Shown here: positions 9,821-46,142 of the stretch, one piece after another
Layout of the letters: each line of letters starts with the position of its first letter
How positions within the stretch are numbered: the stretch's first letter is position 1
Assembly: GCA_005788175.1 (NCBI GenBank)
Contig: SXYX01000014.1
Location: 87,277 to 151,276 of the forward strand
DNA: 64,000 nucleotides
Direction: 5' to 3'
Source: Acidobacteriota bacterium
GTDB lineage: Bacteria > Acidobacteriota > Holophagae > Holophagales > Holophagaceae
Notes under the pieces: generated by a model
Seen by the model: the letters and a program-made list of their open reading frames with translations, nothing else
Told to the model about the DNA's origin: nothing
Database searches by the model: none
Position numbers and translations under genes: made by a program

Positions 9821-10812
9821 GGCATTAAAAAAGCGATCTCTTGAAGAACCATAATAGCGGAAGGATTCCTGTCGACATGCCTTAAGGCATCAAAGAGTTT
9901 TTCTTCAAGTTGTCGCAGGGGTATCTCTCGCTCGCTTATAATTCTTAATCTATCAGCATAAAAAAGTAACCTAGGTTCCGCATCATCCTGAATACGCTTC
10001 ACATCGTTGACAATACTCAAAAGTAATTCAAGTGACTCTCGTAACCAAAGGTTTGATGCTGTATCTTCATCTTGTTTCTTTTGCTCTAAAAGATTATCGA
10101 TATCTCGAAGATCACCCTTCCCCTCTAGTATCTTGAGCCAGGTATTCATCTGAAGATGAACTCGATCGTATCGCTCGCTATCAATATAGCGACAAGTACC
10201 ATTCGCAAGGGAAAGCATGGTCATTATTTCTCCTCTATCCCAAGATTGGGATAGAGCAATTTGTTCAATTTCATTAGAACCTAAAGGTGAGAGTACTACT
10301 CGCTCACAACGGCTTTTGATAGTTGGAAGCATGGCCTCGGGTCGATGAGTAATCAAAATAAAATATACATTTTTAGGTGGCTCTTCGAGGAGTTTGAGTA
10401 ACATATTTCCTGAAGTACTATTCAGTTGATGTGCATCGTCAATAATGACAAATTTGTGCAGGCTAGACCCAAGAGAAGTGCCTAACCATTCGAAAATACC
10501 CCCCTCAAGACTATGTGCATGTCTAAGACTTTCGACTTTAATCTGGCCCGCTTTACCCTCAGGTGCAATAAAAAGAAGATTCGGAGGGGGTGTATCGATA
10601 AAATTTGTTTGTAGATATAAACGACAAGCCTCGCATGTACCACATCCTGTTTTTTTTTCACAAAGGTCTTTTTGTGCTAACTCTAAAGCGACGAGCTTTT
10701 TCCCAATTGAATCTGGACCTTGAAACAGGAGTGTTTTAGCTAAGGTTTGTGTCTCAAATCGCTTTGCTAATTGTGAACGTATCGCACTATGGCCTATTAA
10801 ACGAGGTGGCAT
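9817..10812 (-). CDS. holB: DNA polymerase III delta' subunit
   Basis: LLFQGPDSIGKKLVALELAQ...CGTCEACRLY. The preferred start is the ATG at 10812, which forms an ATGA overlap with the tmk stop. The ORF track extends to 10863. Confidence 0.8.
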   Translation of the reverse strand: MPPRLIGHSAIRSQLAKRFETQTLAKTLLFQGPDSIGKKLVALELAQKDLCEKKTGCGTCEACRLYLQTNFIDTPPPNLLFIAPEGKAGQIKVESLRHAHSLEGGIFEWLGTSLGSSLHKFVIIDDAHQLNSTSGNMLLKLLEEPPKNVYFILITHRPEAMLPTIKSRCERVVLSPLGSNEIEQIALSQSWDRGEIMTMLSLANGTCRYIDSERYDRVHLQMNTWLKILEGKGDLRDIDNLLEQKKQDEDTASNLWLRESLELLLSIVNDVKRIQDDAEPRLLFYADRLRIISEREIPLRQLEEKLFDALRHVDRNPSAIMVLQEIAFLMP

Positions 10813-34878: not shown

Positions 34879-36249
34879 GTGAAAGTCGGATTCGTTAGTT
34901 TAGGTTGCCCTAAAAATCTTGTAGATAGCGAGGTCATGCTGGGCCATTTGAGACTTAAGGGTTATCAGATCACCTCAAAAATGGATGAAGCTCGCATTCT
35001 TGTTGTGAATACTTGTAGTTTCATCGAAGACGCTAAGCGTGAGAGTCTCGATGCTCTTTTTGAAGCGGCCTCGATGAAAAAAAAGGGGGCATGCGAAAAA
35101 TTAATTGTTGCCGGTTGTATGGTAGAGCGCTACAGAGAAACTCTATTAAAAGATATTCCTGAAATTGATGCCTGCCTAGGGACAAGAGACATTGAAAAGA
35201 TTGCTGAAGTTATTGGAGGATCGGGATGGGGGGAGTTGGACCGCAATCCATCTTATCTTTATGATGAACGTTCCCCTCGATTGATTACAACTCCGAAAGC
35301 TACGGCTTATTTAAAGATCAGTGAAGGTTGTGATCATAGCTGCGCTTTTTGTATCATTCCGAAAATTCGCGGTAGCCAACGTAGTCGATCTGTGGACAGC
35401 GTCGTTGCTGAAGCGCAAAAACTTGTAGATCAGGGTGTCTTAGAGATTTGCCTAGTGGCCCAAGACACGACTGATTATGGCCGAGATTTAGGAGAACCTG
35501 AGGCTCTGGCTACCTTAGTTCGCGAGCTTGGAAAAGTTAAGGGACTTGAGTGGTTTCGTATTCATTATGCTTATCCCAATCGATTATCTAACGAGATGAT
35601 TCGAGCGATTGCTGAAACAGATAACTGTGCTAAATACCTTGATATGCCCCTTCAACATGCAAGTCAGAGTCTTCTGAAGAAAATGTCTCGAGGTGGATCA
35701 GCAGAAAGCTTTAGTCGATTGATTCAAGACATCAGAGAAGTTTGTCCCAAAATTCATCTGAGATCTAATTTTATTGTTGGATTTCCTGGGGAATCAGAAT
35801 CAGACTTTGACGAACTTCAATCTTTCATCTCAACCATGCAATTCGATCACGTAGGCGTCTTTACCTATAGCCAGGAAGAAGAAACTCCGGCTTTTGCATT
35901 AGGTGATCCAATCCACTTATCAGAAAAAATTCGGAGAAAAAATAAAATTCTTAGTGTGCAGCAAGATATCGCAAGATCAAAAAATCAACTCAAGATTGGG
36001 AAAACGCTCAAGGTATTCATCGAAGGAGCCCATGAAGAAACGCCGATGGTCTTCAAAGGTCGGCACGAAGGTCAATCGCCAGATATCGATGGAAACGTAC
36101 TAATTGTCGATGGCAATCCAAAACCACAAACCTTTCAATGGGTGAAAATCATTGAAGCCCATGCCTATGATTTAGTTGGCGAGATCAAAGAGGGTGGATT
36201 AGAGTCAACTATAGAATCTTATGAAAAAAATTACCGAAACCACCTCTAA
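34879..36249 (+). CDS. rimO: ribosomal protein S12 methylthiotransferase RimO
   Basis: GTG start. FVSLGCPKNLVDSE, radical-SAM CDHSCAFC and a C-terminal TRAM domain. Confidence 0.9.
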   Translation: MKVGFVSLGCPKNLVDSEVMLGHLRLKGYQITSKMDEARILVVNTCSFIEDAKRESLDALFEAASMKKKGACEKLIVAGCMVERYRETLLKDIPEIDACLGTRDIEKIAEVIGGSGWGELDRNPSYLYDERSPRLITTPKATAYLKISEGCDHSCAFCIIPKIRGSQRSRSVDSVVAEAQKLVDQGVLEICLVAQDTTDYGRDLGEPEALATLVRELGKVKGLEWFRIHYAYPNRLSNEMIRAIAETDNCAKYLDMPLQHASQSLLKKMSRGGSAESFSRLIQDIREVCPKIHLRSNFIVGFPGESESDFDELQSFISTMQFDHVGVFTYSQEEETPAFALGDPIHLSEKIRRKNKILSVQQDIARSKNQLKIGKTLKVFIEGAHEETPMVFKGRHEGQSPDIDGNVLIVDGNPKPQTFQWVKIIEAHAYDLVGEIKEGGLESTIESYEKNYRNHL

Positions 36250-36790
36250 TTCTGAGTCCTCATGTCATCGGAGATCCTGGCTGCTTGCCACAGGATTCGG
36301 CACAGGCTTCTTCCCTTTTGCTCCAGGAACTTGGGGGAGTTTTGCTGCTCTAGTTGCATGGATGGGCTTTTTCATTCTTGGACTTATGTTGGACTTAAGA
36401 AAAACTACAGCCGGTTTTGTTTTTTTAGGTCCTCTTTTACTATGGTGGTTAGGCTCACAAAGCATCAAGAACATTCAATCTGAATTCGATAATCAAGACC
36501 CCTCGTATATCGTGGTTGATGAGTGGGTAGGCATGTGGATCGCACTCATGCCCTTAGCGTCTGTAATCGCAAGGGACCCTTTTGCCTCATGGCAAGAACA
36601 GCTTTTAAGATGCGCCATACCATTCACCCTCTTTCGAATTCTTGATATATGGAAGCCGGGACCCATTCGTCGAGTTCAAAAAATAGGGGGAGCTTCGGGG
36701 ATTATGATGGATGATGTTCTTGCTGGCCTGGGAGCTGCTTTACTGACCAGACCTTTGATAAATCTTGCCCATCGTTTTTTCATAGTCTAA
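36221..36790 (+). CDS. pgpA: phosphatidylglycerophosphatase A
   Basis: LATGFGTGFFPFAPGTWGS, VDEWVGMW and DIWKP motifs. It overlaps rimO by 29 nt. Confidence 0.85.
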   Translation: MKKITETTSNSESSCHRRSWLLATGFGTGFFPFAPGTWGSFAALVAWMGFFILGLMLDLRKTTAGFVFLGPLLLWWLGSQSIKNIQSEFDNQDPSYIVVDEWVGMWIALMPLASVIARDPFASWQEQLLRCAIPFTLFRILDIWKPGPIRRVQKIGGASGIMMDDVLAGLGAALLTRPLINLAHRFFIV

Positions 36791-36806: not shown

Positions 36807-38525
36807 TTATTTTTCAGATATCGGAGCAAGTCCGCCATCTCCATCGAGGTGGCGACTTTGAATATGATATTTGTACCCTTGTTCCGTCAAAAAAAGCTGC
36901 CGATTTCTGGCAAACTCTTGTTCGGTTGTGTCTCGACTAATCAACGTATAAAAGTAACTCACATTTTCTGCATCTTTAGGCCGAAGAATACGACCCAAAC
37001 GTTGAGCTTCTTCCTGCCTGGAACCGAATGTTCCTGAAACTTGAATGGCAACACTTGCATCGGGTAGGTCAATTGCAAAGTTGGCTACTTTGCTGACGAT
37101 TAAAATTTTTAATTCACCCTTTCGAAAAAGACCAAAAAGCCTTTCTCTTTCTTTTTCGGGTGTTTGACCCATGAGAAGAGGAGCTTGAAAATGCTCTGAG
37201 ATCATTTTAAGTTGCTCGATATATTGACCAATAACCAATACGGAGTCTTGAGGATGGAGCGTGAGAATTTCACGAATCACCTTAAGCTTGAGTGAATTCT
37301 CAGAAGCGATTCGAAAACGCAGTCGTTGATCCGCAACGGCATAATTCATTCTTTCTTCGCTTGGAAGAGGGATTCTGATTTCCAAACATTGTGCGGTGGC
37401 AATAAATCCATCTTTCTCCAATACTTTCCAAGGAACATCAACCCGTTTGGGGCCAATGAGAGAAAATACATCTTCTTCCTTGTGGTCTTCGCGGACTAGC
37501 GTGGCAGTTAACCCCAGCCTTCGACGAGCTTGAAGTTCAGCTACCGCCCTAAAAATAGGAGCAGGGAGCATGTGGACTTCGTCATAAATAATTAATCCCC
37601 AGTTAGAAGCTTCGAAGATTTTGAAATGATCAAAGGGCCCATTTTTATCTTTACGATAAGTCAGTATTTGATAAGTTGCGATCGTAACAGGTGCTATTTG
37701 TTTGCTTTCACCGCTATAAAGGCCGATTTGATTGTCTGCCAGGGTGGTTTTATCAAGTAATTCTTGTTTCCACTGCTTCACAGCCGTTACATTAGTTGTC
37801 AAAATAAGCGTGTGTGTCTGCAGACCGGTCATACAGGCCATTCCAATAACCGTTTTACCAGCTCCGCAAGGAAGGACAAGAACCCCTGCTCCCCCTTCAG
37901 GTCCACCTCCTGCGTGAAAAACATCTGCCGCTGACTGTTGATATTTTCTAAGCGCAAATGGTTTACTATTTTCTTTGAGCTCAGATCTCAATTCAAAAGA
38001 AAGGGGTTCACCGTCTTTGAAGCCTGCCAAATCTTGAACGGGGTGGCCGAGTCGAATAAGTTGTAGCTTGATTTCACCTCTTGATCCTTCACGTATATAA
38101 ATTCCCTTTTGATCACCAAAGGGCTCTTGAAGAAAATCTCGGAGTGTTTTTTGATTAGAAATTTCCCAAAATAGTCCTCGATCTTCAATGTCAAGTGCTA
38201 AGCGATTATCTTTTTTGATTAATTTAATTTTCCCGTATCGGGTGGAATGGTCTTTAATTTCTTGAATAATATTTTGGGGTATTTCATATTTGGACCACAT
38301 TAATAGAATTTCAATGATAGTGTTTTCGATAACTCCCGAAGCTGACGCATTCCAAAGACTTAAAGGGCTTATACGATAGGTATGGATGTGCTCCGGGCTT
38401 TTTACCAATTCAGAAAACCGAGAGATCTCATCTCGAACTCGCTCAAATTCAGGATGAGCAACTTCTACCAATAAGGTCCGGTCGCTTTGGACGATAAGGG
38501 GATTATCTGGACGAAGGGGGGTCAA
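36807..38525 (-). CDS. XPB/Ssl2/Rad25-type SF2 DNA helicase
   Basis: An N-terminal XPB-type domain is followed by LRKYQ, Walker A LPCGAGKT, DEVH and GLTATLVRED (the XPB 'RED' motif), then a helicase C-domain. TTG start. Confidence 0.85.
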   Translation of the reverse strand: MTPLRPDNPLIVQSDRTLLVEVAHPEFERVRDEISRFSELVKSPEHIHTYRISPLSLWNASASGVIENTIIEILLMWSKYEIPQNIIQEIKDHSTRYGKIKLIKKDNRLALDIEDRGLFWEISNQKTLRDFLQEPFGDQKGIYIREGSRGEIKLQLIRLGHPVQDLAGFKDGEPLSFELRSELKENSKPFALRKYQQSAADVFHAGGGPEGGAGVLVLPCGAGKTVIGMACMTGLQTHTLILTTNVTAVKQWKQELLDKTTLADNQIGLYSGESKQIAPVTIATYQILTYRKDKNGPFDHFKIFEASNWGLIIYDEVHMLPAPIFRAVAELQARRRLGLTATLVREDHKEEDVFSLIGPKRVDVPWKVLEKDGFIATAQCLEIRIPLPSEERMNYAVADQRLRFRIASENSLKLKVIREILTLHPQDSVLVIGQYIEQLKMISEHFQAPLLMGQTPEKERERLFGLFRKGELKILIVSKVANFAIDLPDASVAIQVSGTFGSRQEEAQRLGRILRPKDAENVSYFYTLISRDTTEQEFARNRQLFLTEQGYKYHIQSRHLDGDGGLAPISEK

Positions 38526-38667
38526 GGGGGTACCTAACCCTCAAGGCTAAAGGCATATTGCTCGGTGGTCAAATACCAATGTTGAAGTTGTTGCTGAGGA
38601 AATAATAAATTTATGTAAACTATCCTCTTACAGTAACGATTATTTACAGTTCTCTTGGGAGAAAAGC

Positions 38668-41394
38668 ATGAGTGCCATTAAGAAATTTTTTATAGTGATG
38701 ATGATTGTGCTTATGAATCACACAATATCAGCGCAAGACGGAACGCAAGATAAACCACTAGGAAGTTTAGGAGAGAGGCGAAGGAATTTACCCGCTCGAG
38801 TGGGTCCCAATGTATTGAAAGGCCATGATTTGGCAGAAGAGAGACAAAAGTGGGCTCTGGAGTGGTTTGGTAATTCGTCTGTAGAGTATCTCGATGCTAT
38901 AAACAAAATTGCTGAAAAAGAAGTTAGTAAATATCGATCTAAAGTTCCCGTACCTGTGTTTTCAGGATCCTCCGCTACCTTAACGTATCCACTTCTAGAG
39001 GGTGCTATCGGTTCTTTCGGCGGAGGGGTGTGGACCAACATCGGGCCTTTCGGTAATTTGATTGATTCCGTCTGGCCGGACCATGACACTGGGCGAGTGA
39101 CTCGTATTACACCTCACCCAAATTGGCCTACGACTCCGACCCTCTATTTGTCCTTCGCGGGAGGGGGAGTTTTCAAATGTACAAATGCAGACCCCACTGC
39201 AGGCGCGACGGGTTGGTCCTGGGTTTCCATCACGGATAGTCTTCCCGCCATTGGTTCTGATGGCAGTCAAGCTGTTGGAGCTTTGGCTATCGATCCCAAT
39301 AATGCGAACACTCTTTACCTAGGATTAGGAGACTTCGTCGATGGCGAGGGACGAGGATTTTATAAATCGATCGATGGCGGCGTAACTTGGTTTGCTGCGA
39401 CTGGTTTGGGATCTGCAACTCGAAGTCATGACATTCTTGTGATGAATGATGGTCGTATTTTTTGGGCAACCAATGATGGTCTCAAGGTAAGTACATCCAA
39501 TACTTCCTCAACCCTAACGTTTGTACCAATCGGATCTACACAGGGAATTACGGGAGTAGTATGGACTATAAAAAAACTCGATGAAAATAGTTTAGTTTGT
39601 AGCGTTGAGGGTTCGGCTGGCACCATTTTTTACTCAACCAATGGGGGCTTCACTTGGTCTTCATCTTCGATTCAAGGTGTTACAGGTTCAATATATCGAA
39701 TTACTTTAGCGGCGATGGCCTCAAAAGTAGTTGGAATTTTTGAGACAGGAGGTTCAATTTCAAGAGGGCTACTCGTTAGTACTAACGGGGGATCAAGCTT
39801 TACCTATCAAGCCCAAACTGGTTCAGGCGCTACGGGTCTCTTTCACAACAGTGGGGGGAATGGTGACGGAGGTCAAGATTGGTACAACCAACTCCTAGCG
39901 ATTGATCCAAATAATGGAAACAATATATTTGTGGCTGCTAATTTAGCTTCCTATCGTAGTCAAGACGGAGGGTTGACCTGGCAGCAGATGTCTCATTGGT
40001 ATGGGGGAGGGAAAGTCTACATGCATGCCGACCACCATACGGCGGCCTGGTCATCTAATGGACAGATTTTACTGATTGGAACTGATGGAGGGCTTGCAAT
40101 TTTACGTGACCCTTTTCGGGCAGTTGTACCCTCTGCAGCGGGAACGACGAGCGTTCCTGCCGACGTCACCTTTATAGACCATCGTCGCAATTTCGGTCTG
40201 TCTACCCATCAAATTTATAATTTAGGGTCGACCAATGCTACTACTCCCTCGGATTCCAAGTACCGAGTGATCATCGGCCTTCAAGATAACGGAACCCGGG
40301 TGAGACAAGCGGTGGCTAATACCGGATTAATTGGCACCACGGGACCTCTACAAAACAGTGGAATATTCGAAGATACGATCGGTGGAGATGGGTTTTCCTC
40401 AGTGATCCATCCGGAGAATGGAAACCTTATGCTCGGGTCTCTTTATTACACACGCATATTTAAGAGCGTAAATGGAGGAACGTCAAGCTTCTCGTCGTCC
40501 GGTACAGGAATCGTAGGAGCAGGATCAAGTACAACATCACCTTTTTACCCTAAAATGCATTTAGGTAATTCTATTGCCCCTGATTCCGTATACACCCAAA
40601 CCAATTATGTTCTTTATAAAAGTGGAAATTTTGGTTCGAATTGGTCTGCGTTACCTATGACAGGGTATCCCACGAATAGTGCTATTCGTAACTTTCATAC
40701 CTCGGAAGTTAATCAGGCCCTGCATGTCATCGTAGGAGGTAATGGTACTTTTTACAAAGCTCGAATTCCAGAATTAAACAATGATGCCTTTGTCGATGCG
40801 CTAGATTTACTTGTTGTAGCGAAACATCATGGGTCATCGACCGCAACGGCTAGAAAATGGGCTGATGTCAATGGTGATGGAAGCGTTGGAGATTCAGATA
40901 TTACCGCTACGATTGGGGTTCTTGATGGGGCGGCGAACAATGTCGCCACCTGGACTCAATTAGGTGGAACAGCCAATCCGGCCGTAAATAACTCATGGGT
41001 ATGGATAGACACCACAAATGAGCAAAACATGTATATTGGGTCAGCCACGAGAAATTTGAGTAGTTCGTCGCTTCAGTCAAAATTATATAAATCTACCAAC
41101 GGGGGTACTACATGGTCTGCTATCGGCGATGCCTCGAGTGGACTTCCCTTTGGAGTACCCGTTCATGTAATCAAGAATATTCCTGGAGACGGCTCAAAGT
41201 TATTCTGTGGAACTGATTTTGGTATTTACTATTCAGAAGACTCTGGAAATACCTGGGTTCGCTATGGCGCTGGTCTACCCTTAGTGTCCGTTCGAGATAT
41301 TTATATTGCCCCGGATAAGTCCTTCATTCGAATTGCTACTTACGGAAGAGGTGTGTGGGAAATCAATAATCCCACTTACACTGCTTCTGAATAA
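38668..41394 (+). CDS. secreted Asp-box (BNR/sortilin-VPS10-like) double beta-propeller protein with an inserted dockerin-like module
   Basis: A signal peptide and at least 8 Asp-box-like repeats (SIDGGVTW, STNGGFTW, STNGGSSF, SQDGGLTW, SVNGGTSS, SGNFGSNW, STNGGTTW, SEDSGNTW). Confidence 0.8.
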   Translation: MSAIKKFFIVMMIVLMNHTISAQDGTQDKPLGSLGERRRNLPARVGPNVLKGHDLAEERQKWALEWFGNSSVEYLDAINKIAEKEVSKYRSKVPVPVFSGSSATLTYPLLEGAIGSFGGGVWTNIGPFGNLIDSVWPDHDTGRVTRITPHPNWPTTPTLYLSFAGGGVFKCTNADPTAGATGWSWVSITDSLPAIGSDGSQAVGALAIDPNNANTLYLGLGDFVDGEGRGFYKSIDGGVTWFAATGLGSATRSHDILVMNDGRIFWATNDGLKVSTSNTSSTLTFVPIGSTQGITGVVWTIKKLDENSLVCSVEGSAGTIFYSTNGGFTWSSSSIQGVTGSIYRITLAAMASKVVGIFETGGSISRGLLVSTNGGSSFTYQAQTGSGATGLFHNSGGNGDGGQDWYNQLLAIDPNNGNNIFVAANLASYRSQDGGLTWQQMSHWYGGGKVYMHADHHTAAWSSNGQILLIGTDGGLAILRDPFRAVVPSAAGTTSVPADVTFIDHRRNFGLSTHQIYNLGSTNATTPSDSKYRVIIGLQDNGTRVRQAVANTGLIGTTGPLQNSGIFEDTIGGDGFSSVIHPENGNLMLGSLYYTRIFKSVNGGTSSFSSSGTGIVGAGSSTTSPFYPKMHLGNSIAPDSVYTQTNYVLYKSGNFGSNWSALPMTGYPTNSAIRNFHTSEVNQALHVIVGGNGTFYKARIPELNNDAFVDALDLLVVAKHHGSSTATARKWADVNGDGSVGDSDITATIGVLDGAANNVATWTQLGGTANPAVNNSWVWIDTTNEQNMYIGSATRNLSSSSLQSKLYKSTNGGTTWSAIGDASSGLPFGVPVHVIKNIPGDGSKLFCGTDFGIYYSEDSGNTWVRYGAGLPLVSVRDIYIAPDKSFIRIATYGRGVWEINNPTYTASE
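40771..40929 (+). other. dockerin-like duplicated Ca-binding segment (protein domain, aa 702-754)
   Basis: ELNNDAFVDALDLLVVAKHHG is followed by a linker and ADVNGDGSVGDSDITATIGVLDG. This is a two-segment DxNxDGxxxxxD-plus-helix pattern like type I dockerins. Confidence 0.6.
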
Positions 41395-41408
41395 ACTTGA
41401 GGATCATT

Positions 41409-42236
41409 ATGAAACAATTGCGTCATCGTTTTGGTTTTGGAATTTTAGGAATTTTGACTACTCTTATCATCGCTTGCGGAGGCGGTGGCGGTGGCGGTGG
41501 ATCCTCACAACCACCAACGCCTGCGCCCATAGCTACGTCACTTACGGCAGGTGCAGCCACAATCTCCCCGGGAACGAGCACCACCCTCACGGCCATTTTT
41601 AGTAACGGAACCGGCCTTATAACGCCAGGAAACACGCCGGTGCTTTCGGGGGTAGCTATTTCTGTTACACCGATGGCCACCACGACTTATACCCTCACCG
41701 TCACCAACAGCGTTGGTCTCACGGCAACAGCGACCGCCACTATCACGGTGGGTAGTACAACTAAAACTCTTAGCTATGTTGATCCAACCAGCGGTACATA
41801 TCGTTGGATAAAAAATTCATCGCTGAGTACTAGTAACTTAATAGTTTTTGATCTTGTCACCACAGATTCTCAGCTTGTTTCAGGGATTGCATTCACCATG
41901 AACACAGATTTCTCAAAGGCAGTTTTTAGTAAAGTAAATAGTTCAGATAATATGTATGTCCAAAATGGAACAGTATTCAATATAGGATCTTCTATTCCTA
42001 TTTTTTATTCCAATCAAGCGTCGAGCACTCTCACAGCAGTAGTAGCACAAAAGGGATCTTCGGGGATTCCCATAAATGGTTCATCGGCCGTCCTAGCAAG
42101 AATCGCTCTGGTCGCAAATCAAACGGGCACGGTGGGCACTGTTAATTTGACCCCCATCCGGGCTCAAATTAATGTTCAAGGCATCCCTAATCCAGTGAAT
42201 ATTACGATAACGGCTGGAACGTTAACGCTCAATTAG
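41409..42236 (+). CDS. lipoprotein: poly-Gly/Pro linker, Ig-like domain, and a C-terminal cohesin-like beta-sandwich (tentative)
   Basis: The ATG at 41409 is preceded by GAGGA. Lipobox LIIAC is followed by G8SSQPPTPAP. The C-terminal LIVFDLVTTDSQLVSGIAFTMNTD...AVLARIALVANQTGTVGTVNL pattern is cohesin-like. Confidence 0.6.
   Translation: MKQLRHRFGFGILGILTTLIIACGGGGGGGGSSQPPTPAPIATSLTAGAATISPGTSTTLTAIFSNGTGLITPGNTPVLSGVAISVTPMATTTYTLTVTNSVGLTATATATITVGSTTKTLSYVDPTSGTYRWIKNSSLSTSNLIVFDLVTTDSQLVSGIAFTMNTDFSKAVFSKVNSSDNMYVQNGTVFNIGSSIPIFYSNQASSTLTAVVAQKGSSGIPINGSSAVLARIALVANQTGTVGTVNLTPIRAQINVQGIPNPVNITITAGTLTLN
41478..41501 (+). repeat. (GGC GGT)n simple-sequence tract encoding Gly8
   Basis: gga ggc ggt ggc ggt ggc ggt gga lies immediately after the lipobox Cys codon. 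Confidence 0.8.
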
Positions 42237-42389
42237 TCTAAGTCTAAGCCTAAGCATATCGATGCCGAAAAAGAGGGTTGTAAACTCTCTTTTTCTTACC
42301 TGTGGGTCGTGGGGCTATATACCAGTTTTTTATATTTTTTTTGACATTCCAATGAGACACTATAGGGTGATTCTTTGGGTACTATTTCC

Positions 42390-44315
42390 ATGAGTGAAGC
42401 ATCGATTCATTTTCAATTACTCTCGTATTGTACAGAAGAAGAATTGGAATTAATTTGTAAAAGGCGACGTATAACTATTCCTATACGATGGAAGGATAGA
42501 CCTGATGGATTAAGATCTTTGATCAAGAGTATGATCTATCGTCTTGAGGATCATCGTCACTTATCCGATGTTCTAGCATCACTTCAAGAGCCTGAGTTGA
42601 TCGCCTTGAAGCACCTTGCCGAGGGAAAACAGCCCTCTATCACAGCTATTCCAAGTTTATTTTCCCTAGGGTTGATTCTGCCTATTGAGACTCACACAAG
42701 AGACCTATGGACCCTATCCGAGCGTGTACGCGCTGCTTTAGATGATTTTGATGACTTAGCTTTGTCTTTACAGGCTCCAGCGGGTACCCTCCTGCGCCAG
42801 AGTGGATCCTTCCGTTTTTCCTTGGCTCTTGTCGTGATCTTATTACGATGTGTTCATGGAGTCAGGGTTCTCAAAGCCGGATTACCTGCCAAAAAAGAAT
42901 TGGATCACATCACTCGAAACAATACTTTTTTTTCTCCGAGCGCCCTAGGCGAAGAAGATGCGTCTCTCCTTTTTACTTTACTGCATCGACTTGGCTTACT
43001 ATGGCAACGTGAAGGGAGGGTTGAAACCCTAATACCTGCGGTCTTATCTCATCCCCCAAGGTGGATTGCCGAACGCACATTTGCTTATTTGATCGAGCAT
43101 GATTTAGATGCCTGGCAAATGCCAACTTGTGAAGATCGCCTTTTTTTTCTCCGGCATCTTTTAGATCGACCTAAGCAAATTCTCAAAATTGATCCCTTTT
43201 TAGATTTTTTAGGAACTCTTAGGCAGTTCGATGCTCAAAGTATTAAGCTTAGATTCCTGCCCTTCCTACACCGTATTGGTTTATTGGATATGGATTCGAG
43301 TGACAATTACTTTGCCCTTTCTGAACATGGTCTAGCTCTAACTGAGGAGTATATCCATAGAAATCCCGCTTCTACCCGAGCCCATTGGGCTATGTTTGAA
43401 TCCTCTCAAGATCTAGTGATTCAGCCAAATTTTGAAATCCTGACACCACTCCTTCAAAATCCGCATCGGCTTCTTCGGTTGGCCGAAATCTCGTCATTAG
43501 AATCCGTGGATACATTGGCAAACTTTAAACTTTCACATGACTCAATAATAAAAGCCGTTGATTTAGGTGTCACGATAAGTGAAATACGCGATACGCTAGG
43601 CTTGAAAATTCCAACAACGGTCAATGATTTATTGAACGATCTAGATCGTCGAATCGGCGAAGTAGAAATTAAGCAAAATATACGTCTTATTGAAACCAAG
43701 ACACCAGAGCTTGCAAATGAGATTATGGTACGGCCAGAGTTTATTCCTCTTGGTCTCAAACAAATTGGAGCCAACCTTATTGAGGTCCATGGTGAAGGGA
43801 ATATTAATAGTTTTCTCAAAGAGGCGGGTTATCTTCCTAAACCCTCGCGCTTTCTCCCTTTGAGTATTGACGCACAAGAAGATCTTTATCTTTGGTCACT
43901 TGCGGGCCTTGCTTTTATTGACGAGAAAGGCCTCAATCATCATTTAGATCCAATCCGCCAAATGATTCGTCAATCCCTCCAGCAGATTCGAGAAGAAAAC
44001 CCTGCCTTATTTCAGCAAATCCAACGTCGAATCCCTATGCTTCATCTATCAGGAGACCAACAACCCGTCGAAGAAACTCGGGGTATTTTGGACTATGCAA
44101 CCATGCATAATTTAGCTGTCGAAATAACCTATTTGCCTCCCGCTGCCCACCGAACCCAATTTCGAAAACTCAGCCCCAAGTCAATCGAAGAAGATACTTT
44201 GGTAGCATTTTGCCATTTACATCAAGAGGATATGGTTTTTAGACTTAAGCGCATTCACGGGGTCCGTCTTCTGAACGAAAAAGGATGGAATCGCGATACG
44301 CCTCAGGTCGGTTAA
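42390..44315 (+). CDS. XPB-N-terminal-domain (Helicase_C_3-like) protein with a C-terminal WYL-like domain and no helicase core
   Basis: The ATG at 42390 is in frame with the tracked TTG at 42375. Residues from about 341 to 487 parallel the N-terminal domain of the XPB gene in this window. The C-terminus reads LAVEITYLPP..RTQFRKLSPKSI..LVAFCHLHQEDMVFRLKRIHGVRLL. Confidence 0.6.
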   Translation: MSEASIHFQLLSYCTEEELELICKRRRITIPIRWKDRPDGLRSLIKSMIYRLEDHRHLSDVLASLQEPELIALKHLAEGKQPSITAIPSLFSLGLILPIETHTRDLWTLSERVRAALDDFDDLALSLQAPAGTLLRQSGSFRFSLALVVILLRCVHGVRVLKAGLPAKKELDHITRNNTFFSPSALGEEDASLLFTLLHRLGLLWQREGRVETLIPAVLSHPPRWIAERTFAYLIEHDLDAWQMPTCEDRLFFLRHLLDRPKQILKIDPFLDFLGTLRQFDAQSIKLRFLPFLHRIGLLDMDSSDNYFALSEHGLALTEEYIHRNPASTRAHWAMFESSQDLVIQPNFEILTPLLQNPHRLLRLAEISSLESVDTLANFKLSHDSIIKAVDLGVTISEIRDTLGLKIPTTVNDLLNDLDRRIGEVEIKQNIRLIETKTPELANEIMVRPEFIPLGLKQIGANLIEVHGEGNINSFLKEAGYLPKPSRFLPLSIDAQEDLYLWSLAGLAFIDEKGLNHHLDPIRQMIRQSLQQIREENPALFQQIQRRIPMLHLSGDQQPVEETRGILDYATMHNLAVEITYLPPAAHRTQFRKLSPKSIEEDTLVAFCHLHQEDMVFRLKRIHGVRLLNEKGWNRDTPQVG

Positions 44316-44809
44316 TTACTTTTGTTTCTAACTTTTAATACATCAAGTTCATTGACTGATTTTTTTCTATCAGGTAGTGGCAGTACAGGATACTGTTTGT
44401 AATCTTTAGCTAGTTGTAATTGTGCATCCTGAATGGCTTTTTGAAGATTTTGATTAGTATCTACAAGACGTTGCTGTTCCAGTCTATTCAGTTCAATTTG
44501 TTGGGCTAGGGCTTTTGCTTTTTGATTCTGTGAGATACCCCATATCGCTGTGGCAAAAATGATAGGAATCGAAGCGGCGGCGAGAATCCAGCTTAGGCTA
44601 GAGCGATGTCGAAGCGTACGACGGCGGCGAAGAGCTTCGAGATAAAGACTTTGCGCGAGCTCTTCATGATGATGAGATTCGGCTGTTATGTCTTCATCAG
44701 GTTGTGTTTTCAAGCCAAGCATTTGACTTATATCTGATCGTAGTTGGACGTCATCGATTGATTCAATCCTTTGAGAAGTTTTCTTCAAACGAGACTTAAA
44801 CCATGACAT
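44312..44809 (-). CDS. putative anti-sigma factor (single-pass membrane protein with an extracytoplasmic coiled coil)
   Basis: It overlaps the upstream ECF sigma gene by 14 nt. It has one TM (SWILAAASIPIIFATAIWGI) and no HxxxCxxC motif. Confidence 0.5.
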   Translation of the reverse strand: MSWFKSRLKKTSQRIESIDDVQLRSDISQMLGLKTQPDEDITAESHHHEELAQSLYLEALRRRRTLRHRSSLSWILAAASIPIIFATAIWGISQNQKAKALAQQIELNRLEQQRLVDTNQNLQKAIQDAQLQLAKDYKQYPVLPLPDRKKSVNELDVLKVRNKSN

Positions 44810-45299
44810 GGTGACCTCCTGGATTGAGCTGATCTCTGAGTTGTGCTTTTGCTCGATGAATGCGAGTCTTCACTGTTGCTTCTGGAATTTCTAGAATATG
44901 TGCAATTTCACGAATTGAAAGTCCGTCGACTACAAATAGCCAAATGGCTTCCCTAAAAGTAGGAGGAAGTTTCTGTATCTCTTTTCGTATTTCAGATGTA
45001 AGTAATGCATCATAGGCATCGCCTTCCTTGCCCTGATCAACAACAAATTCAAGGGAAATATTCTGATTTTTGAGAGGACGCCTTTCGGTTAACGCAAGTG
45101 TCCGTGTTGTTCCATATAAAAAAGCGATAGGATGATCAATTTTATCTTCTCGCTGCATGAGAATAACAAATGCTTCTTGGGTAATGTCCTCTGGATAGAT
45201 AGCTCCAAACCGGCGCGCATAGCTCACTAGTTTTGGATAATATTCTGAAAAAGCAGCGTAAAACGCTTCGCCAGTTCCAAAGGGGCTAAAGTCACTCAT
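44796..45299 (-). CDS. ECF-type RNA polymerase sigma-70 family factor
   Basis: Region 2 (DITQEAFVILM) and region 4 HTH (LPPTFREAIWLFVVDGLSIREIAHILEIPEATVKTRIHRAKAQLR). Confidence 0.85.
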   Translation of the reverse strand: MSDFSPFGTGEAFYAAFSEYYPKLVSYARRFGAIYPEDITQEAFVILMQREDKIDHPIAFLYGTTRTLALTERRPLKNQNISLEFVVDQGKEGDAYDALLTSEIRKEIQKLPPTFREAIWLFVVDGLSIREIAHILEIPEATVKTRIHRAKAQLRDQLNPGGHHVMV

Positions 45300-45334
45300 G
45301 TGGAATTTCCTGAGAATATGCCTATTATGACTTG

Positions 45335-45360
45335 TATGACCTGAAATCGATGAAAGTTCC
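45335..45360 (-). promoter_or_regulatory. candidate autoregulated ECF-type promoter
   Basis: On the minus strand, GGAACTT (45354-45360) is followed by TCATA (45335-39), 16 nt after the GGAAC core and about 36 nt upstream of the sigma-factor ATG. Confidence 0.3.
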
Positions 45361-45374
45361 TTAAACTTAGCTAT

Positions 45375-46142
45375 ATGACTAAGGAAATCGAAGACTGGAA
45401 GGCTACTTTACGTGATCTTGGGGTAACCTCCTTGATTCGGCCCGAAAATCAACATATCCCGTCTAAAGAGAGTCACTCGGTGAGTCCCAAAAAAATTAAG
45501 AAATCAGAGCATGTTGATTCGCTTCCATATGAGCAACCGACAGATCCTGCTCGGAATCCGCCCATAGAAATTATTAGTGCATGTACAAATTTACAACAGT
45601 TATCCGAGGCGATAAGCGGTTGTCAAAAATGTGTACTAGGGACCACGCGTAACCAGCTAGTTTTTGGAGAAGGTAATCCTGACGCTGAAATGATGTTTAT
45701 AGGAGAGGGACCGGGAAGAGATGAAGATCTTCATGGAAGACCTTTCGTTGGCCGTGCAGGTGATCTTTTGGAAAAAATGATAATTGCAATTGGACTCAAG
45801 CGATCTGAGGTCTATATTGCGAATATTGTTAAATGTCGTCCTCCTGATAATCGGATTCCAATGCCTGAAGAAGTTCGCTCTTGTTTAGGTTACTTACATA
45901 AACAGATCGAATTGATTCAACCCAAGGTAATCATCACTCTTGGCGCTACACCCCTTAGAGAACTCTTGGGAATTACTGAAGGCATCACGAAAATTAGGGG
46001 TACAGTCCAGTCCTATAAGTCGATCCCTGTAATTCCCACTTTTCACCCTGCCTACGTGCTGAGAATGTACACACCCGAAGTCAGGAAAGCCGTATGGGAT
46101 GATCTTAAATTTGCTAAGTCTAAAATTGAAATCCCTAATTAA
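45375..46142 (+). CDS. family-4 uracil-DNA glycosylase with a roughly 70-aa N-terminal extension
   Basis: CQKC...FGEGNPDAEMMFIGEGPGRDEDLHGRPFVGRAGDLL...NIVKCRPP...HPAYVLR. Confidence 0.85.
   Translation: MTKEIEDWKATLRDLGVTSLIRPENQHIPSKESHSVSPKKIKKSEHVDSLPYEQPTDPARNPPIEIISACTNLQQLSEAISGCQKCVLGTTRNQLVFGEGNPDAEMMFIGEGPGRDEDLHGRPFVGRAGDLLEKMIIAIGLKRSEVYIANIVKCRPPDNRIPMPEEVRSCLGYLHKQIELIQPKVIITLGATPLRELLGITEGITKIRGTVQSYKSIPVIPTFHPAYVLRMYTPEVRKAVWDDLKFAKSKIEIPN

What the first reader, a model, noticed from the sequence alone, without database searches (positions are those of the whole stretch)
42390..44315. Helicase-less copy of the XPB N-terminal domain fused to a WYL-like domain: a candidate sensor partner for the nearby XPB helicase
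Residues from about 341 to 487 of this 641-aa protein line up position by position with the N-terminal domain of the XPB helicase 4 kb away. The partner reads LVIQPNFEILTPLL...SLESVDTLANFKLSHDSIIKAVDLGVTISEIRDTLG..IPTTVNDLLNDLDRRIGEVEI...LKEAGYLPKP. The XPB reads LIVQSDRTLLVEV...SELVKSPEHIHTYRISPLSLWNASASGVIENTIIEIL....IPQNIIQEIKDHSTRYGKIKL...LIRLGHPVQD. This protein has no Walker A or DEVH core. Its last 70 aa or so fit the WYL-domain pattern (xVxIxY...RxxxPxxI...LVAxC....E.R.FRLxRI). WYL domains are ligand or ssDNA sensors in PafBC-, BrxR- and CapW-type regulators. A paired motor and XPB-NTD/WYL sensor is not a characterised bacterial system as far as I know. It could be a damage- or foreign-DNA-responsive module. 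The roughly 340-aa N-terminal region has no family I can recognise.
Basis: partly seen in the sequence, partly recalled or inferred. Interest (0 to 1): 0.72.

Follow-up and report, generated by a model that had tools for sequence, protein, structure and literature searches.

The report
Bacterial p52-like XPB partner with WYL
This gene encodes a helicase-less protein related to p52, the TFIIH subunit that docks and activates the XPB motor in eukaryotes; it carries an added WYL sensor domain and sits beside XPB in many bacterial phyla, so it may be the missing partner of the poorly understood bacterial XPB helicase.

Summary
Window 42390-44315 (+) encodes a 641-aa protein with a Pfam Helicase_C_3 (XPB N-terminal) domain at residues 342-459 (E 3e-11). 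It has no helicase motifs. Its C-terminal domain is WYL: the Pfam score is below threshold, but the predicted fold and the relatives confirm it.

The interpretation as an XPB partner is supported and extended.
- **Linkage to XPB.** XPB lies on the minus strand 3.9 kb away. In Holophaga relatives the two genes are directly adjacent and divergent. In Streptomyces, a spirochaete, candidate division KSB1 and two unclassified metagenome contigs they are adjacent, overlapping or within about 2 kb. Starting from XPB, 44 of 52 informative metagenomic loci carry such a partner, 37 of them directly adjacent.
- **The N-terminal 340 aa.** This region is not an orphan. With the XPB-like domain it is homologous to TFIIH p52/Tfb2. 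Profiles of the bacterial family hit Tfb2/p52 chains at E about 1e-7, ahead of XPB itself. The model without its WYL domain has p52/Tfb2 as its seven best structural matches.
- **The WYL domain.** It is an addition found in a minority of the family.

Most likely the protein docks on the XPB N-terminal domain as p52 does and couples nucleic-acid sensing to the motor. No physical interaction was tested, and I found no paper describing this module.

The parts
42390..44315 (+). Gene for the 641-aa helicase-less XPB partner: a p52/Tfb2-like core plus a WYL domain.
   Evidence: ORF and translation. Full-length conservation in 25 Holophagae homologues. Full-length homology to relatives in other phyla (hhalign E 9.6e-52).
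42390..43409 (+). N-terminal region, residues 1-340. It holds three winged-helix-like modules, each with the motif L..[LI]GL[IL] at residues 90, 198 and 293, followed by a two-helix connector.
   Evidence: AF2 secondary structure with pLDDT 80-94. Motif positions. For the model of residues 1-490, the seven best Foldseek matches are p52/Tfb2, followed by MarR-type winged-helix proteins. The A5 family profile aligns to Tfb2 from about 180 positions before the XPB-like domain.
43410..43841 (+). Helicase_C_3 domain, residues 341-484. It is the counterpart of the XPB N-terminal domain and of the p52 clutch plus C-terminal region, and is the proposed XPB-docking surface.
   Evidence: Pfam PF13625 at E 3.1e-11. 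hhalign to XPB residues 3-182. The family profile aligns to human p52 residues 305-453.
43842..44066 (+). Linker, residues 485-559, with three predicted helices of low model confidence.
   Evidence: pLDDT 41-71. Conserved in sequence within Holophagae.
44067..44273 (+). WYL domain, residues 560-628: one helix followed by a five-stranded Sm-like barrel.
   Evidence: Foldseek top hits are CapW, BrxR, PafBC and DriD. Pfam WYL scores 17.8 bits, below threshold. Homologues pass the threshold. The A2 family profile hits the PafBC WYL domain at E 3e-14.
36807..38525 (-). XPB helicase gene, 572 aa, the proposed motor partner.
   Evidence: NCBIfam repair_heli_XPB at 851 bits. Pfam ERCC3_RAD25_C, ResIII and Helicase_C. 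GAGKT and DEVH motifs present.
38130..38498 (-). XPB N-terminal domain (Helicase_C_3, residues 10-132), the proposed docking site for the partner.
   Evidence: Pfam PF13625 at E 2.3e-31. Role inferred by analogy with the XPB NTD-p52 clutch dimer (PMC6422496).
38544..38572 (-). Sigma-70-like promoter of XPB on the minus strand: TTGACC, 17 nt, TAGCCT. It is conserved in Holophaga loci as TTGACC-17-TAGGCT.
   Evidence: Read directly from the intergenic sequences. Promoter function is inferred.
42353..42361 (+). Conserved motif TGAGACACT (family consensus RTGRGAnnCT), 29-37 nt before the partner's ATG. It may be a TG-extended -10 element.
   Evidence: Found at the same relative place upstream of the partner gene in Holophaga, Geothrix and the window's closest relatives. 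Function is inferred.
42268..42296 (+). Terminator-like hairpin followed by a T run after the upstream 279-aa gene. It separates that gene's transcript from the partner gene.
   Evidence: Sequence. A stronger hairpin, AAAAAGAGGG..CCCTCTTTTT, sits at the same place in L001.

Best explanation
The 641-aa protein is the regulatory and targeting subunit of a two-protein bacterial XPB machine, and it is a remote homologue of the TFIIH subunit p52/Tfb2.

**Shown here.**
- It has three winged-helix modules.
- It has an XPB-NTD-like domain that aligns to the p52 clutch and C-terminal region.
- After a linker of about 75 residues it has a WYL domain.
- Genes of this family sit next to XPB across several phyla, often with overlapping stop and start codons.

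**Inferred.**
- Its Helicase_C_3 domain pairs with the homologous N-terminal domain of XPB, in the pseudo-symmetric way that the p52 clutch pairs with XPB in TFIIH. This would hold XPB in an active conformation and stimulate its otherwise weak ATPase and translocase.
- The winged-helix array contacts duplex DNA or another factor.
- The WYL domain binds a nucleic-acid cue, most likely single-stranded DNA as in PafBC, DriD and CapW. The motor would then be recruited or switched on at damaged or unwound DNA.

In this Holophagaceae lineage the ancestral divergent gene pair has been split by an insertion of about 3.6 kb. Both genes keep their own conserved promoters.
For: **Domains.**
- Helicase_C_3 at E 3e-11.
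- WYL by predicted fold and in 20 of 30 distant homologues.

**Homology to p52/Tfb2.**
- The profile of XPB-adjacent partners (A5) hits C. thermophilum Tfb2 at E 1.6e-7 over chain residues 92-329. It hits yeast TFB2 at 4.6e-7 and human p52 at 4.9e-7 over residues 305-453 of 462. All of these rank above the XPB N-terminal domains, which score 2.6e-6 to 5e-6.
- The target aligns to that profile over residues 8-572 (E 9.5e-27).
- Pfam Tfb2 gives sub-threshold hits in 6 of 40 family members. One starts about 60 residues before the Helicase_C_3 domain.
- Foldseek with residues 1-490 returns p52/Tfb2 chains as its seven best PDB matches.

**Linkage to XPB.**
- 55 of 80 Holophagae loci have XPB within 10 kb, and 14 are directly adjacent and divergent.
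- Streptomyces, Spirochaetaceae, KSB1 and two unclassified metagenome loci have XPB adjacent, overlapping or within about 2 kb, in both gene orders. Tsukamurella has it 3.5 kb away.
- 44 of 52 informative XPB-anchored metagenomic loci carry a partner, mostly co-directional and abutting XPB.

**Precedent.**
- The p52 clutch and the XPB NTD form a pseudo-symmetric dimer that recruits XPB (PMC6422496).
- M. tuberculosis XPB was active as a helicase in vitro only in high molar excess over its DNA substrate, and its ATPase was reported as relatively inefficient (PMC3353954).
Against:
- The similarity to p52 is remote. No family member reaches Pfam's Tfb2 gathering score (best 25 bits against 34.5). 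The Foldseek E-values are weak (5e-3 and above) and the TM-scores are about 0.2, partly because the model has several loosely placed domains.
- The target's own WYL score is below threshold, and the ligand is unknown.
- In this window the genes are 3.9 kb apart with separate promoters, so they may not be co-regulated.
- 8 XPB loci with ample flanks lack a partner. Six Holophagae loci, including Holophaga foetida, show no XPB within 10 kb of the partner. A Streptomyces plasmid carries a paralogue with no XPB nearby.
- Synteny within Holophagae is conserved in general: the ECF sigma factor and the uracil-DNA glycosylase are also retained. The within-family linkage is therefore weak on its own.
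Confidence: 0.62

Rival explanations
1. It is a free-standing WYL-type transcription factor, like PafBC or DriD. It would bind promoters through its winged-helix modules, sense single-stranded DNA through the WYL domain, and control transcription of XPB and perhaps other genes, without joining the helicase.
For: - The WYL domain is closest in fold to transcription regulators.
- After p52, the N-terminal model matches MarR-type winged-helix regulators.
- The ancestral arrangement in Holophaga is a divergent gene pair sharing an intergenic region of about 170 bp. That layout is typical of a regulator and its target.
Against: - In other phyla the gene overlaps XPB by 4 bp or abuts it, in the same orientation. 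That is the pattern of complex subunits rather than of a regulator and its target.
- Most family members lack WYL altogether.
- The protein lacks the HTH-WYL-WCX layout of these regulators and ends 13 residues after the WYL domain.
- It carries a domain whose only characterised role, in p52, is to bind XPB.
- No shared palindromic operator stood out in the intergenic regions.
- No PafBC-type promoter motif or LexA box lay upstream of either gene in the actinobacterial loci; the single core match in Tsukamurella sits more than 1 kb from both.
Confidence: 0.15
2. XPB and the partner form an anti-phage or foreign-DNA defence module, with the WYL domain acting as the infection sensor as in BrxR and CapW.
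For: - WYL proteins commonly regulate defence systems.
- The XPB helicase core gives partial PADLOC hits to PbeA and other defence helicases.
- Paralogues occur on actinobacterial megaplasmids.
Against: - PADLOC gives the partner only a weak generic WYL hit, and no defence system is matched.
- The locus lies in a stable chromosomal neighbourhood shared across Holophagae (miaB-like, pgpA, ECF sigma, uracil-DNA glycosylase).
- GC content is uniform at 42-46%.
- Neither protein carries an identifiable nuclease or other effector domain, and no such gene recurs beside the pair in the loci examined.
- Most partners lack WYL.
Confidence: 0.07
3. The proximity to XPB is inherited synteny without functional coupling. 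The protein would act on its own, for example as a nucleic-acid-binding scaffold.
For: - In this window the genes are 3.9 kb apart with separate promoters.
- Some genomes and plasmids have one gene without the other nearby.
Against: Adjacency recurs in at least four phyla, in both gene orders and often with overlapping reading frames. About 85% of informative XPB loci have a partner. This is hard to explain without selection for co-inheritance or co-expression.
Confidence: 0.08
4. It is a decayed XPB paralogue that lost its helicase core.
For: It shares the Helicase_C_3 domain with XPB.
Against: - The domain sits in the middle of the protein, not at the N-terminus.
- The flanking regions are p52-like winged helices and a WYL domain, not remnants of RecA folds.
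- The family profile matches p52 better than XPB.
- The whole length is under strong conservation (mean column identity 74% across the 25-sequence alignment, which includes the window protein itself).
Confidence: 0.02

Closest known systems
TFIIH subunit p52 / Tfb2 (GTF2H4), the XPB-recruiting subunit of eukaryotes
   Same: - A winged-helix array is followed by a domain homologous to the XPB N-terminal domain.
- Profile hits cover human p52 residues 305-453 and C. thermophilum Tfb2 residues 92-329 at E about 1e-7.
- p52/Tfb2 chains are the best fold matches for residues 1-490.
- The gene is tied to XPB. In eukaryotes the tie is physical; here it is genomic.
   Different: - The match is below Pfam's Tfb2 threshold.
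- No Tfb2_C hit was reported.
- The other TFIIH partners that p52 works with in eukaryotes (p8, p34) were not looked for.
- It carries a linker and a WYL domain that p52 lacks.
- It is bacterial, and in many lineages it comes as two tandem paralogues.
WYL-domain regulators PafBC, DriD, CapW and BrxR
   Same: The C-terminal domain has the WYL fold (rmsd 1.7-2 A over about 75 aligned columns with BrxR). It keeps the R..P and FRL.RI sequence pattern. Structures of DriD and CapW bound to single-stranded DNA are among the fold matches.
   Different: - It has no DeoR/HTH_11-type N-terminal domain.
- It has no WCX domain after the WYL domain.
- The WYL domain is attached to a p52-like helicase-docking scaffold rather than to a promoter-binding module.
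Archaeal XPB-Bax1 helicase-nuclease complex
   Same: An XPB helicase works with a dedicated partner that modulates its ATPase (PMC13024598).
   Different: Bax1 is a nuclease that binds the XPB thumb-like and HD2 regions. The bacterial partner has no nuclease domain and resembles the p52 clutch, which binds the XPB N-terminal domain.
Bacterial 'helicase-associated domain-containing protein' (database name), for example M. tuberculosis Rv0862c next to ercc3/Rv0861c
   Same: Same database label and same size class. Streptomyces and Tsukamurella members lie near XPB. Rv0862c is listed as a conserved protein of unknown function of at least 749 aa (PMC3656116), and ercc3 is Rv0861c (PMC10534295).
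   Different: That Rv0862c belongs to this family rests on my memory, its size and its gene number; I did not test it. The Holophagae proteins are about 170 aa shorter at the N-terminus than these relatives.

Membership tests
TFIIH p52/Tfb2 | Sequence membership: Pfam Tfb2 (PF03849) at or above the gathering score. | tested here: not met
   The target has no hit at E <= 0.01. The best family member scores 25 bits against a cut-off of 34.5. Family profiles nevertheless hit Tfb2/p52 chains in the PDB at E 1.6e-7 to 8e-7. The relationship is remote homology, not formal membership.
TFIIH p52/Tfb2 | A winged-helix array N-terminal to the clutch domain. | tested here: met
   The AF2 model shows three helix-plus-hairpin modules, each with a repeated L..[LI]GL motif. 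The seven best Foldseek matches are p52/Tfb2, including the crystal structure of the N-terminal half of p52 (6tru), at weak E-values of 5e-3 to 0.3. The Tfb2 sequence alignment starts about 180 profile positions before the clutch.
TFIIH p52/Tfb2 | A clutch domain homologous to the XPB N-terminal domain. | tested here: met
   Pfam Helicase_C_3 at E 3.1e-11. hhalign to XPB residues 3-182. The family profile aligns to p52 residues 305-453.
TFIIH p52/Tfb2 | Physical binding to XPB and stimulation of its ATPase. | not testable with these tools
   Only genomic linkage was tested. No complex model could be run.
TFIIH p52/Tfb2 | A C-terminal domain that pairs with p8/TTDA (Pfam Tfb2_C). | tested here: inconclusive
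   No Tfb2_C hit was reported in any scan. The family profile does align through p52 residues 400-453, so an equivalent element may be present. A p8 counterpart was not looked for.
WYL-domain transcription regulators (PafBC, DriD, CapW, BrxR) | A WYL domain. | tested here: met
   The target's Pfam score is below threshold (17.8 bits against 21.8). The fold match is clear. 20 of 30 homologues pass Pfam. The A2 family profile hits the PafBC WYL domain at E 3e-14.
WYL-domain transcription regulators (PafBC, DriD, CapW, BrxR) | The architecture N-terminal HTH, then WYL, then WCX. | tested here: not met
   No HTH_11 or WCX Pfam hits were found. The WYL domain is the last domain, and the protein ends 13 residues after it.
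WYL-domain transcription regulators (PafBC, DriD, CapW, BrxR) | Ligand (single-stranded DNA) binding by the WYL domain. | not testable with these tools
XPB/ERCC3 helicase | SF2 helicase core with motif I (GxGKT) and motif II (DEVH). | tested here: not met
   No GK[ST] or DExH motif and no helicase Pfam hits.
Known anti-phage defence systems (PADLOC) | Match to a defence-system protein model. | tested here: not met
   Only a generic WYL model matched, at E 8e-4.

The most novel reading that the evidence does not exclude
The XPB-p52 pair at the heart of eukaryotic TFIIH has a true bacterial counterpart: a widespread two-gene (sometimes three-gene) XPB operon whose second product is a p52 homologue. 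The working form of bacterial XPB would then be a heterodimer. Its poor activity in isolation would be explained. The WYL-bearing variant seen here would be a version in which binding of single-stranded DNA gates the motor. It would also mean that the XPB-p52 module either predates eukaryotes or passed between bacteria and the eukaryotic stem lineage. That would be consistent with the archaeal XPB characterised so far pairing with Bax1 instead.
Probability: 0.45. Interest if true: 0.82.

Novelty: new variant of a known kind. Interest (0 to 1): 0.7.

Why it matters
**The open question.** Bacterial XPB has been known since 1997, yet a 2026 review still calls its function elusive (PMC13024598). 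A 2012 study of the M. tuberculosis enzyme stated that no p52 or p44 homologues had been found in bacteria and that no partner complex had been identified. It also noted that the enzyme was active as a helicase only in large excess (PMC3353954).

**What a partner would change.**
- A conserved p52-like partner gives a concrete hypothesis that is cheap to test: co-express the two proteins and re-measure the activity.
- It links the core of eukaryotic TFIIH to a bacterial operon, which bears on where the transcription and repair machinery came from.
- The WYL-bearing form would be a case of a WYL sensor attached to a helicase-docking scaffold rather than to a promoter-binding domain.

**Relevance to mycobacteria.** The neighbouring genes Rv0861c (ercc3) and Rv0862c have been tied to rifampin tolerance and to growth (PMC10534295; PMC3656116). 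The pair may therefore matter for drug tolerance.

Tried and rejected
1. **Pairwise BLASTP of the target against the window's XPB.** Nothing significant. The relationship needs profiles.
2. **Target alone, or the Holophagae-only profile, against PDB sequences.** No p52 or XPB hit. Profiles built from more diverse relatives were needed.
3. **Foldseek with the full-length model.** The listed top 50 were WYL and Sm-fold chains and included no p52. A second model of residues 1-490 was needed, and it is of lower confidence (pLDDT 71).
4. **Building a eukaryotic p52 alignment for a direct profile-profile test.** I searched with a 68-aa yeast TFB2 segment. The protein collection returned only short fragments, so this was a dead end.
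5. **Word-indexed search with the alignment of distant relatives.** It gave only 13 proteins. Context for the other relatives came from direct look-ups.
6. **One look-up failed.** P0272 was not on record.
7. **DNA-damage promoter signals.** I looked for the PafBC RecA-NDp motif and the actinobacterial LexA box in the Streptomyces and Tsukamurella loci. None lay upstream of either gene; one core match in Tsukamurella sits more than 1 kb from both.
8. **The generic promoter and terminator scan of the region.** It found no more sites than shuffled sequence gives.
9. **PADLOC.** No defence system matched.
10. **Literature searches** for WYL with XPB, Helicase_C_3 or Tfb2, for bacterial p52-like proteins, and for Rv0862c. 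No paper describes this module. The library lacks most subscription journals, so absence there is not proof.
11. **A shared operator in the divergent Holophaga intergenic regions.** I looked by eye and saw only promoter-like elements and a leader hairpin.
Full report
**1. What is in the window.**
The finding's coordinates hold an intact ORF, 42390..44315 on the + strand, of 641 aa from the ATG. Homologues start at the same methionine.

Pfam places a Helicase_C_3 domain (PF13625, the XPB/Ssl2 N-terminal domain) at residues 342-459. The hit has E 3.1e-11 and 43.8 bits, above the gathering score of 34.2. A WYL match at residues 570-626 falls below threshold (17.8 bits against 21.8, E 0.0033).

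It is a clear XPB: NCBIfam repair_heli_XPB at 851 bits against a cut-off of 610. Its own Helicase_C_3 domain lies at residues 10-132.

The target has no GK[ST] or DExH motif. XPB has GAGKT and DEVH.

Pairwise BLASTP sees nothing there.

**2. The WYL domain is real.**
An AlphaFold2 model built on 25 homologues (mean pLDDT 77.6) shows a helix followed by five strands at residues 560-628. Its best PDB matches are all WYL proteins. They are CapW, BrxR (75 aligned columns, rmsd 1.7 A, 24% identity), PafBC and DriD, followed by Hfq-type Sm folds.

Among 30 distant full-length relatives, 20 pass Pfam WYL, the best at E 2.6e-19. A profile of those relatives hits the PafBC WYL domain in the PDB at E 3e-14.

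**3. The family and its spread.**
The closest relatives are 636-654-aa proteins of Holophagae (Geothrix, Holophaga, Mesoterricola). They are 52-86% identical to the target and conserved over the full length. Databases name them 'helicase-associated domain-containing protein' or 'WYL domain-containing protein'.

An exhaustive profile search found 1771 representative proteins at E <= 1e-3. Most are 700-900 aa long. Profile-profile comparison shows these are homologous to the target across nearly its whole length, not just in the XPB-like domain:
- target 43-631, E 9.6e-52;
- against a set of relatives without WYL, target 8-572, E 9.5e-27.

**4.

*Within Holophagae.* 55 of 80 genome loci have XPB within 10 kb upstream, always on the opposite strand. 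In 14 Holophaga-type loci the two genes are directly adjacent and divergent, about 150-290 bp apart. In Geothrix and in the window's lineage, a dockerin/BNR-type gene and a small gene, sometimes more, are inserted between them. Other neighbours (ECF sigma factor, uracil-DNA glycosylase) are also conserved in this family, so this alone is weak evidence.

*Outside Holophagae.*

| Source | Arrangement |
|---|---|
| Streptomyces | partner and XPB about 2 kb apart |
| Spirochaetaceae | XPB stop overlaps partner start |
| Candidate division KSB1 | XPB stop overlaps partner start |
| Unclassified metagenome contig | XPB then partner, overlapping |
| Unclassified metagenome contig | partner then XPB, abutting |
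| Tsukamurella | 3.5 kb apart |

*Starting from XPB instead.* I collected 80 metagenomic XPB loci, mostly about 55% identical to the window's XPB. I searched their six-frame ORFs with the family profile.
- 44 loci have a partner within 7 kb, 37 of them within 300 bp.
- The partners are mostly co-directional and downstream of XPB.
- 8 loci with at least 3 kb on both sides have none.
- 28 loci have flanks too short to judge.
- About 85% of informative loci therefore carry the pair.
- Nine loci carry two tandem partner paralogues.

Exceptions exist. A Streptomyces plasmid paralogue has no XPB within 5 kb. Six Holophagae loci show no XPB within 10 kb.

**5. What the N-terminal 340 aa is.**
The model shows three helix-plus-hairpin modules. 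Each is marked by L..[LI]GL[IL], at residues 90, 198 and 293.

A second model of residues 1-490 (pLDDT 71) was searched against the PDB.
- Its seven best matches are all TFIIH p52/Tfb2 chains.
- These are yeast TFB2 in pre-initiation complexes, the crystal structure of the N-terminal half of p52, and human p52 in excision-repair complexes.
- MarR-type winged-helix proteins follow.
- E-values are weak (5e-3 to 0.3) and TM-scores are about 0.2, as expected for a chain of loosely placed domains.

Sequence evidence is stronger. A profile of 20 XPB-adjacent partners that lack WYL (A5) was searched against the PDB.

| PDB hit | E-value | Region aligned |
|---|---|---|
| C. thermophilum Tfb2 | 1.6e-7 | chain residues 92-329 |
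| Yeast TFB2 | 4.6e-7 | chain residues 337-405 |
| Human p52 | 4.9e-7 | residues 305-453 of 462 |
| XPB/RAD25 N-terminal domains | 2.6e-6 to 5e-6 | ranked below the p52/Tfb2 hits |

Pfam's Tfb2 model gives sub-threshold hits in 6 of 40 family members scanned. One begins about 60 residues before the Helicase_C_3 domain.

The protein is therefore best described as a remote bacterial homologue of p52/Tfb2. The alignment to human p52 runs through residues 400-453. This means the XPB-like domain of the target corresponds to the p52 clutch plus most of its C-terminal region. The WYL domain is an addition after a linker of about 75 residues, not a replacement.

**6. WYL is a minority feature.**
In the XPB-anchored sample, a C-terminal profile found WYL in 4 ORFs, all of them partners, out of the 44 partner-bearing loci. 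Pfam found it in 0 of 10 partners checked. Some of those carry SWIM or SAP domains instead. WYL-bearing members nevertheless occur in Acidobacteriota, Actinomycetota and KSB1.

**7. Local anatomy.**
- XPB keeps a sigma-70-like promoter, TTGACC-17-TAGCCT, on the minus strand at 38544-38572. The same promoter is seen in Holophaga.
- The partner is preceded by a terminator-like hairpin after the upstream gene, at 42268-42296.
- A motif, TGAGACACT at 42353-42361, is conserved across the family just upstream of the ATG.
- GC content is even across the region, at 42-46%.
- The window holds only one partner and one XPB.

**8. Mechanism.**

*Shown:* the domain make-up, the homology to p52, and the conserved genomic pairing with XPB.

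*Inferred from TFIIH (PMC6422496; PMC13024598):* the partner's XPB-like domain pairs with the XPB N-terminal domain as a pseudo-symmetric dimer and stimulates the motor.

*Inferred from solved WYL structures:* the WYL domain binds single-stranded nucleic acid and so directs or gates the motor at damaged or unwound DNA.

This would explain the weak activity of M. tuberculosis XPB on its own (PMC3353954).

*Rivals considered:*
- A free-standing WYL transcription factor. The divergent layout in Holophaga and the winged helices favour it. The overlapping genes elsewhere, the WYL-less majority and the missing HTH-WYL-WCX layout count against it.
- A defence module. There is no PADLOC match and the chromosomal context is stable.
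- Coincidental synteny.
- A decayed XPB copy.

**9. Known or new.**
Databases annotate the family only generically. In the searchable literature I found no description of a bacterial XPB partner, of a bacterial p52 homologue, or of a WYL domain joined to this scaffold.
- The 2012 M. tuberculosis study states that p52 and p44 homologues had not been found in bacteria.
- Rv0862c, next to ercc3/Rv0861c by gene number, is listed as a conserved protein of unknown function whose disruption attenuates growth.
- ercc3 mutants are hypersusceptible to rifampin.
- That Rv0862c belongs to this family is my recollection and was not tested.

The library lacks most subscription journals, so prior mention elsewhere cannot be excluded.

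I rate this a new variant of a known kind: the XPB-p52 pairing in bacterial form, here with a WYL sensor attached.

**10. Limits.**
- No interaction was modelled or measured.
- The p52 relationship is remote.
- The taxonomy of the metagenomic loci is unknown.
- Whole-genome co-occurrence was not computed.

Noticed in passing
window 38668-42236 (+): A 908-aa protein with a dockerin and sortilin/BNR-like repeats, and a 279-aa protein with no family hit, lie between XPB and its partner. Holophaga relatives lack them there and have the pair directly adjacent. This looks like a lineage-specific insertion into the divergent intergenic region, shared with Geothrix.
   Followed up: partly
L105 4824-9390; L124 8800-13412; also L109, L147, L152, L154, L166: Many metagenomic XPB operons carry two tandem partner paralogues after XPB. 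The first copy matches the family profile more weakly and can carry a SWIM or SAP domain. The second has a strong Helicase_C_3 match. This suggests a three-protein complex in those lineages.
   Followed up: partly
L021 about 9960-10000; L008, L013 about 9960-10000; other Holophaga and Geothrix loci: A short hairpin sits between the conserved upstream motif and the partner's ATG, for example CACCTG..CGGGTG, CCTG..CAGG, CATCTG..CAGGTG. Its stem changes on both sides between genera. In Geothrix it ends 3 nt before the start codon, with the GGAGG box upstream of it. It may be a translational control element.
   Followed up: no
window 44312-46142: An ECF sigma factor with a probable anti-sigma gene (minus strand) and a uracil-DNA glycosylase family gene (plus strand) follow the partner gene. 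This arrangement is kept in 70 and 67 of 80 Holophagae loci respectively, but not in the other phyla examined.
   Followed up: partly
L083 1328-4608: The spirochaete partner carries Pfam TP_0021_N before a weak Helicase_C_3 match. It is followed, overlapping, by a NYN/OST-HTH (RNase-like) gene. This may be a third component in that lineage.
   Followed up: no
L089 5034-6806 (Streptomyces sp. F2 plasmid pFRL4): A shorter paralogue named 'helicase-associated domain-containing protein' lies on a linear plasmid beside an IS110 transposase, with no XPB within 5 kb. Some family members are therefore mobile or act without an adjacent XPB.
   Followed up: no
window 36221-36790 and 34879-36249: pgpA and a radical-SAM methylthiotransferase (UPF0004, Radical_SAM and TRAM domains; MiaB-like) lie next to XPB. 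They are retained upstream of XPB in some Holophagae loci (pgpA in 30 of 80, the methylthiotransferase in 9 of 80), which points to a stable chromosomal setting.
   Followed up: partly
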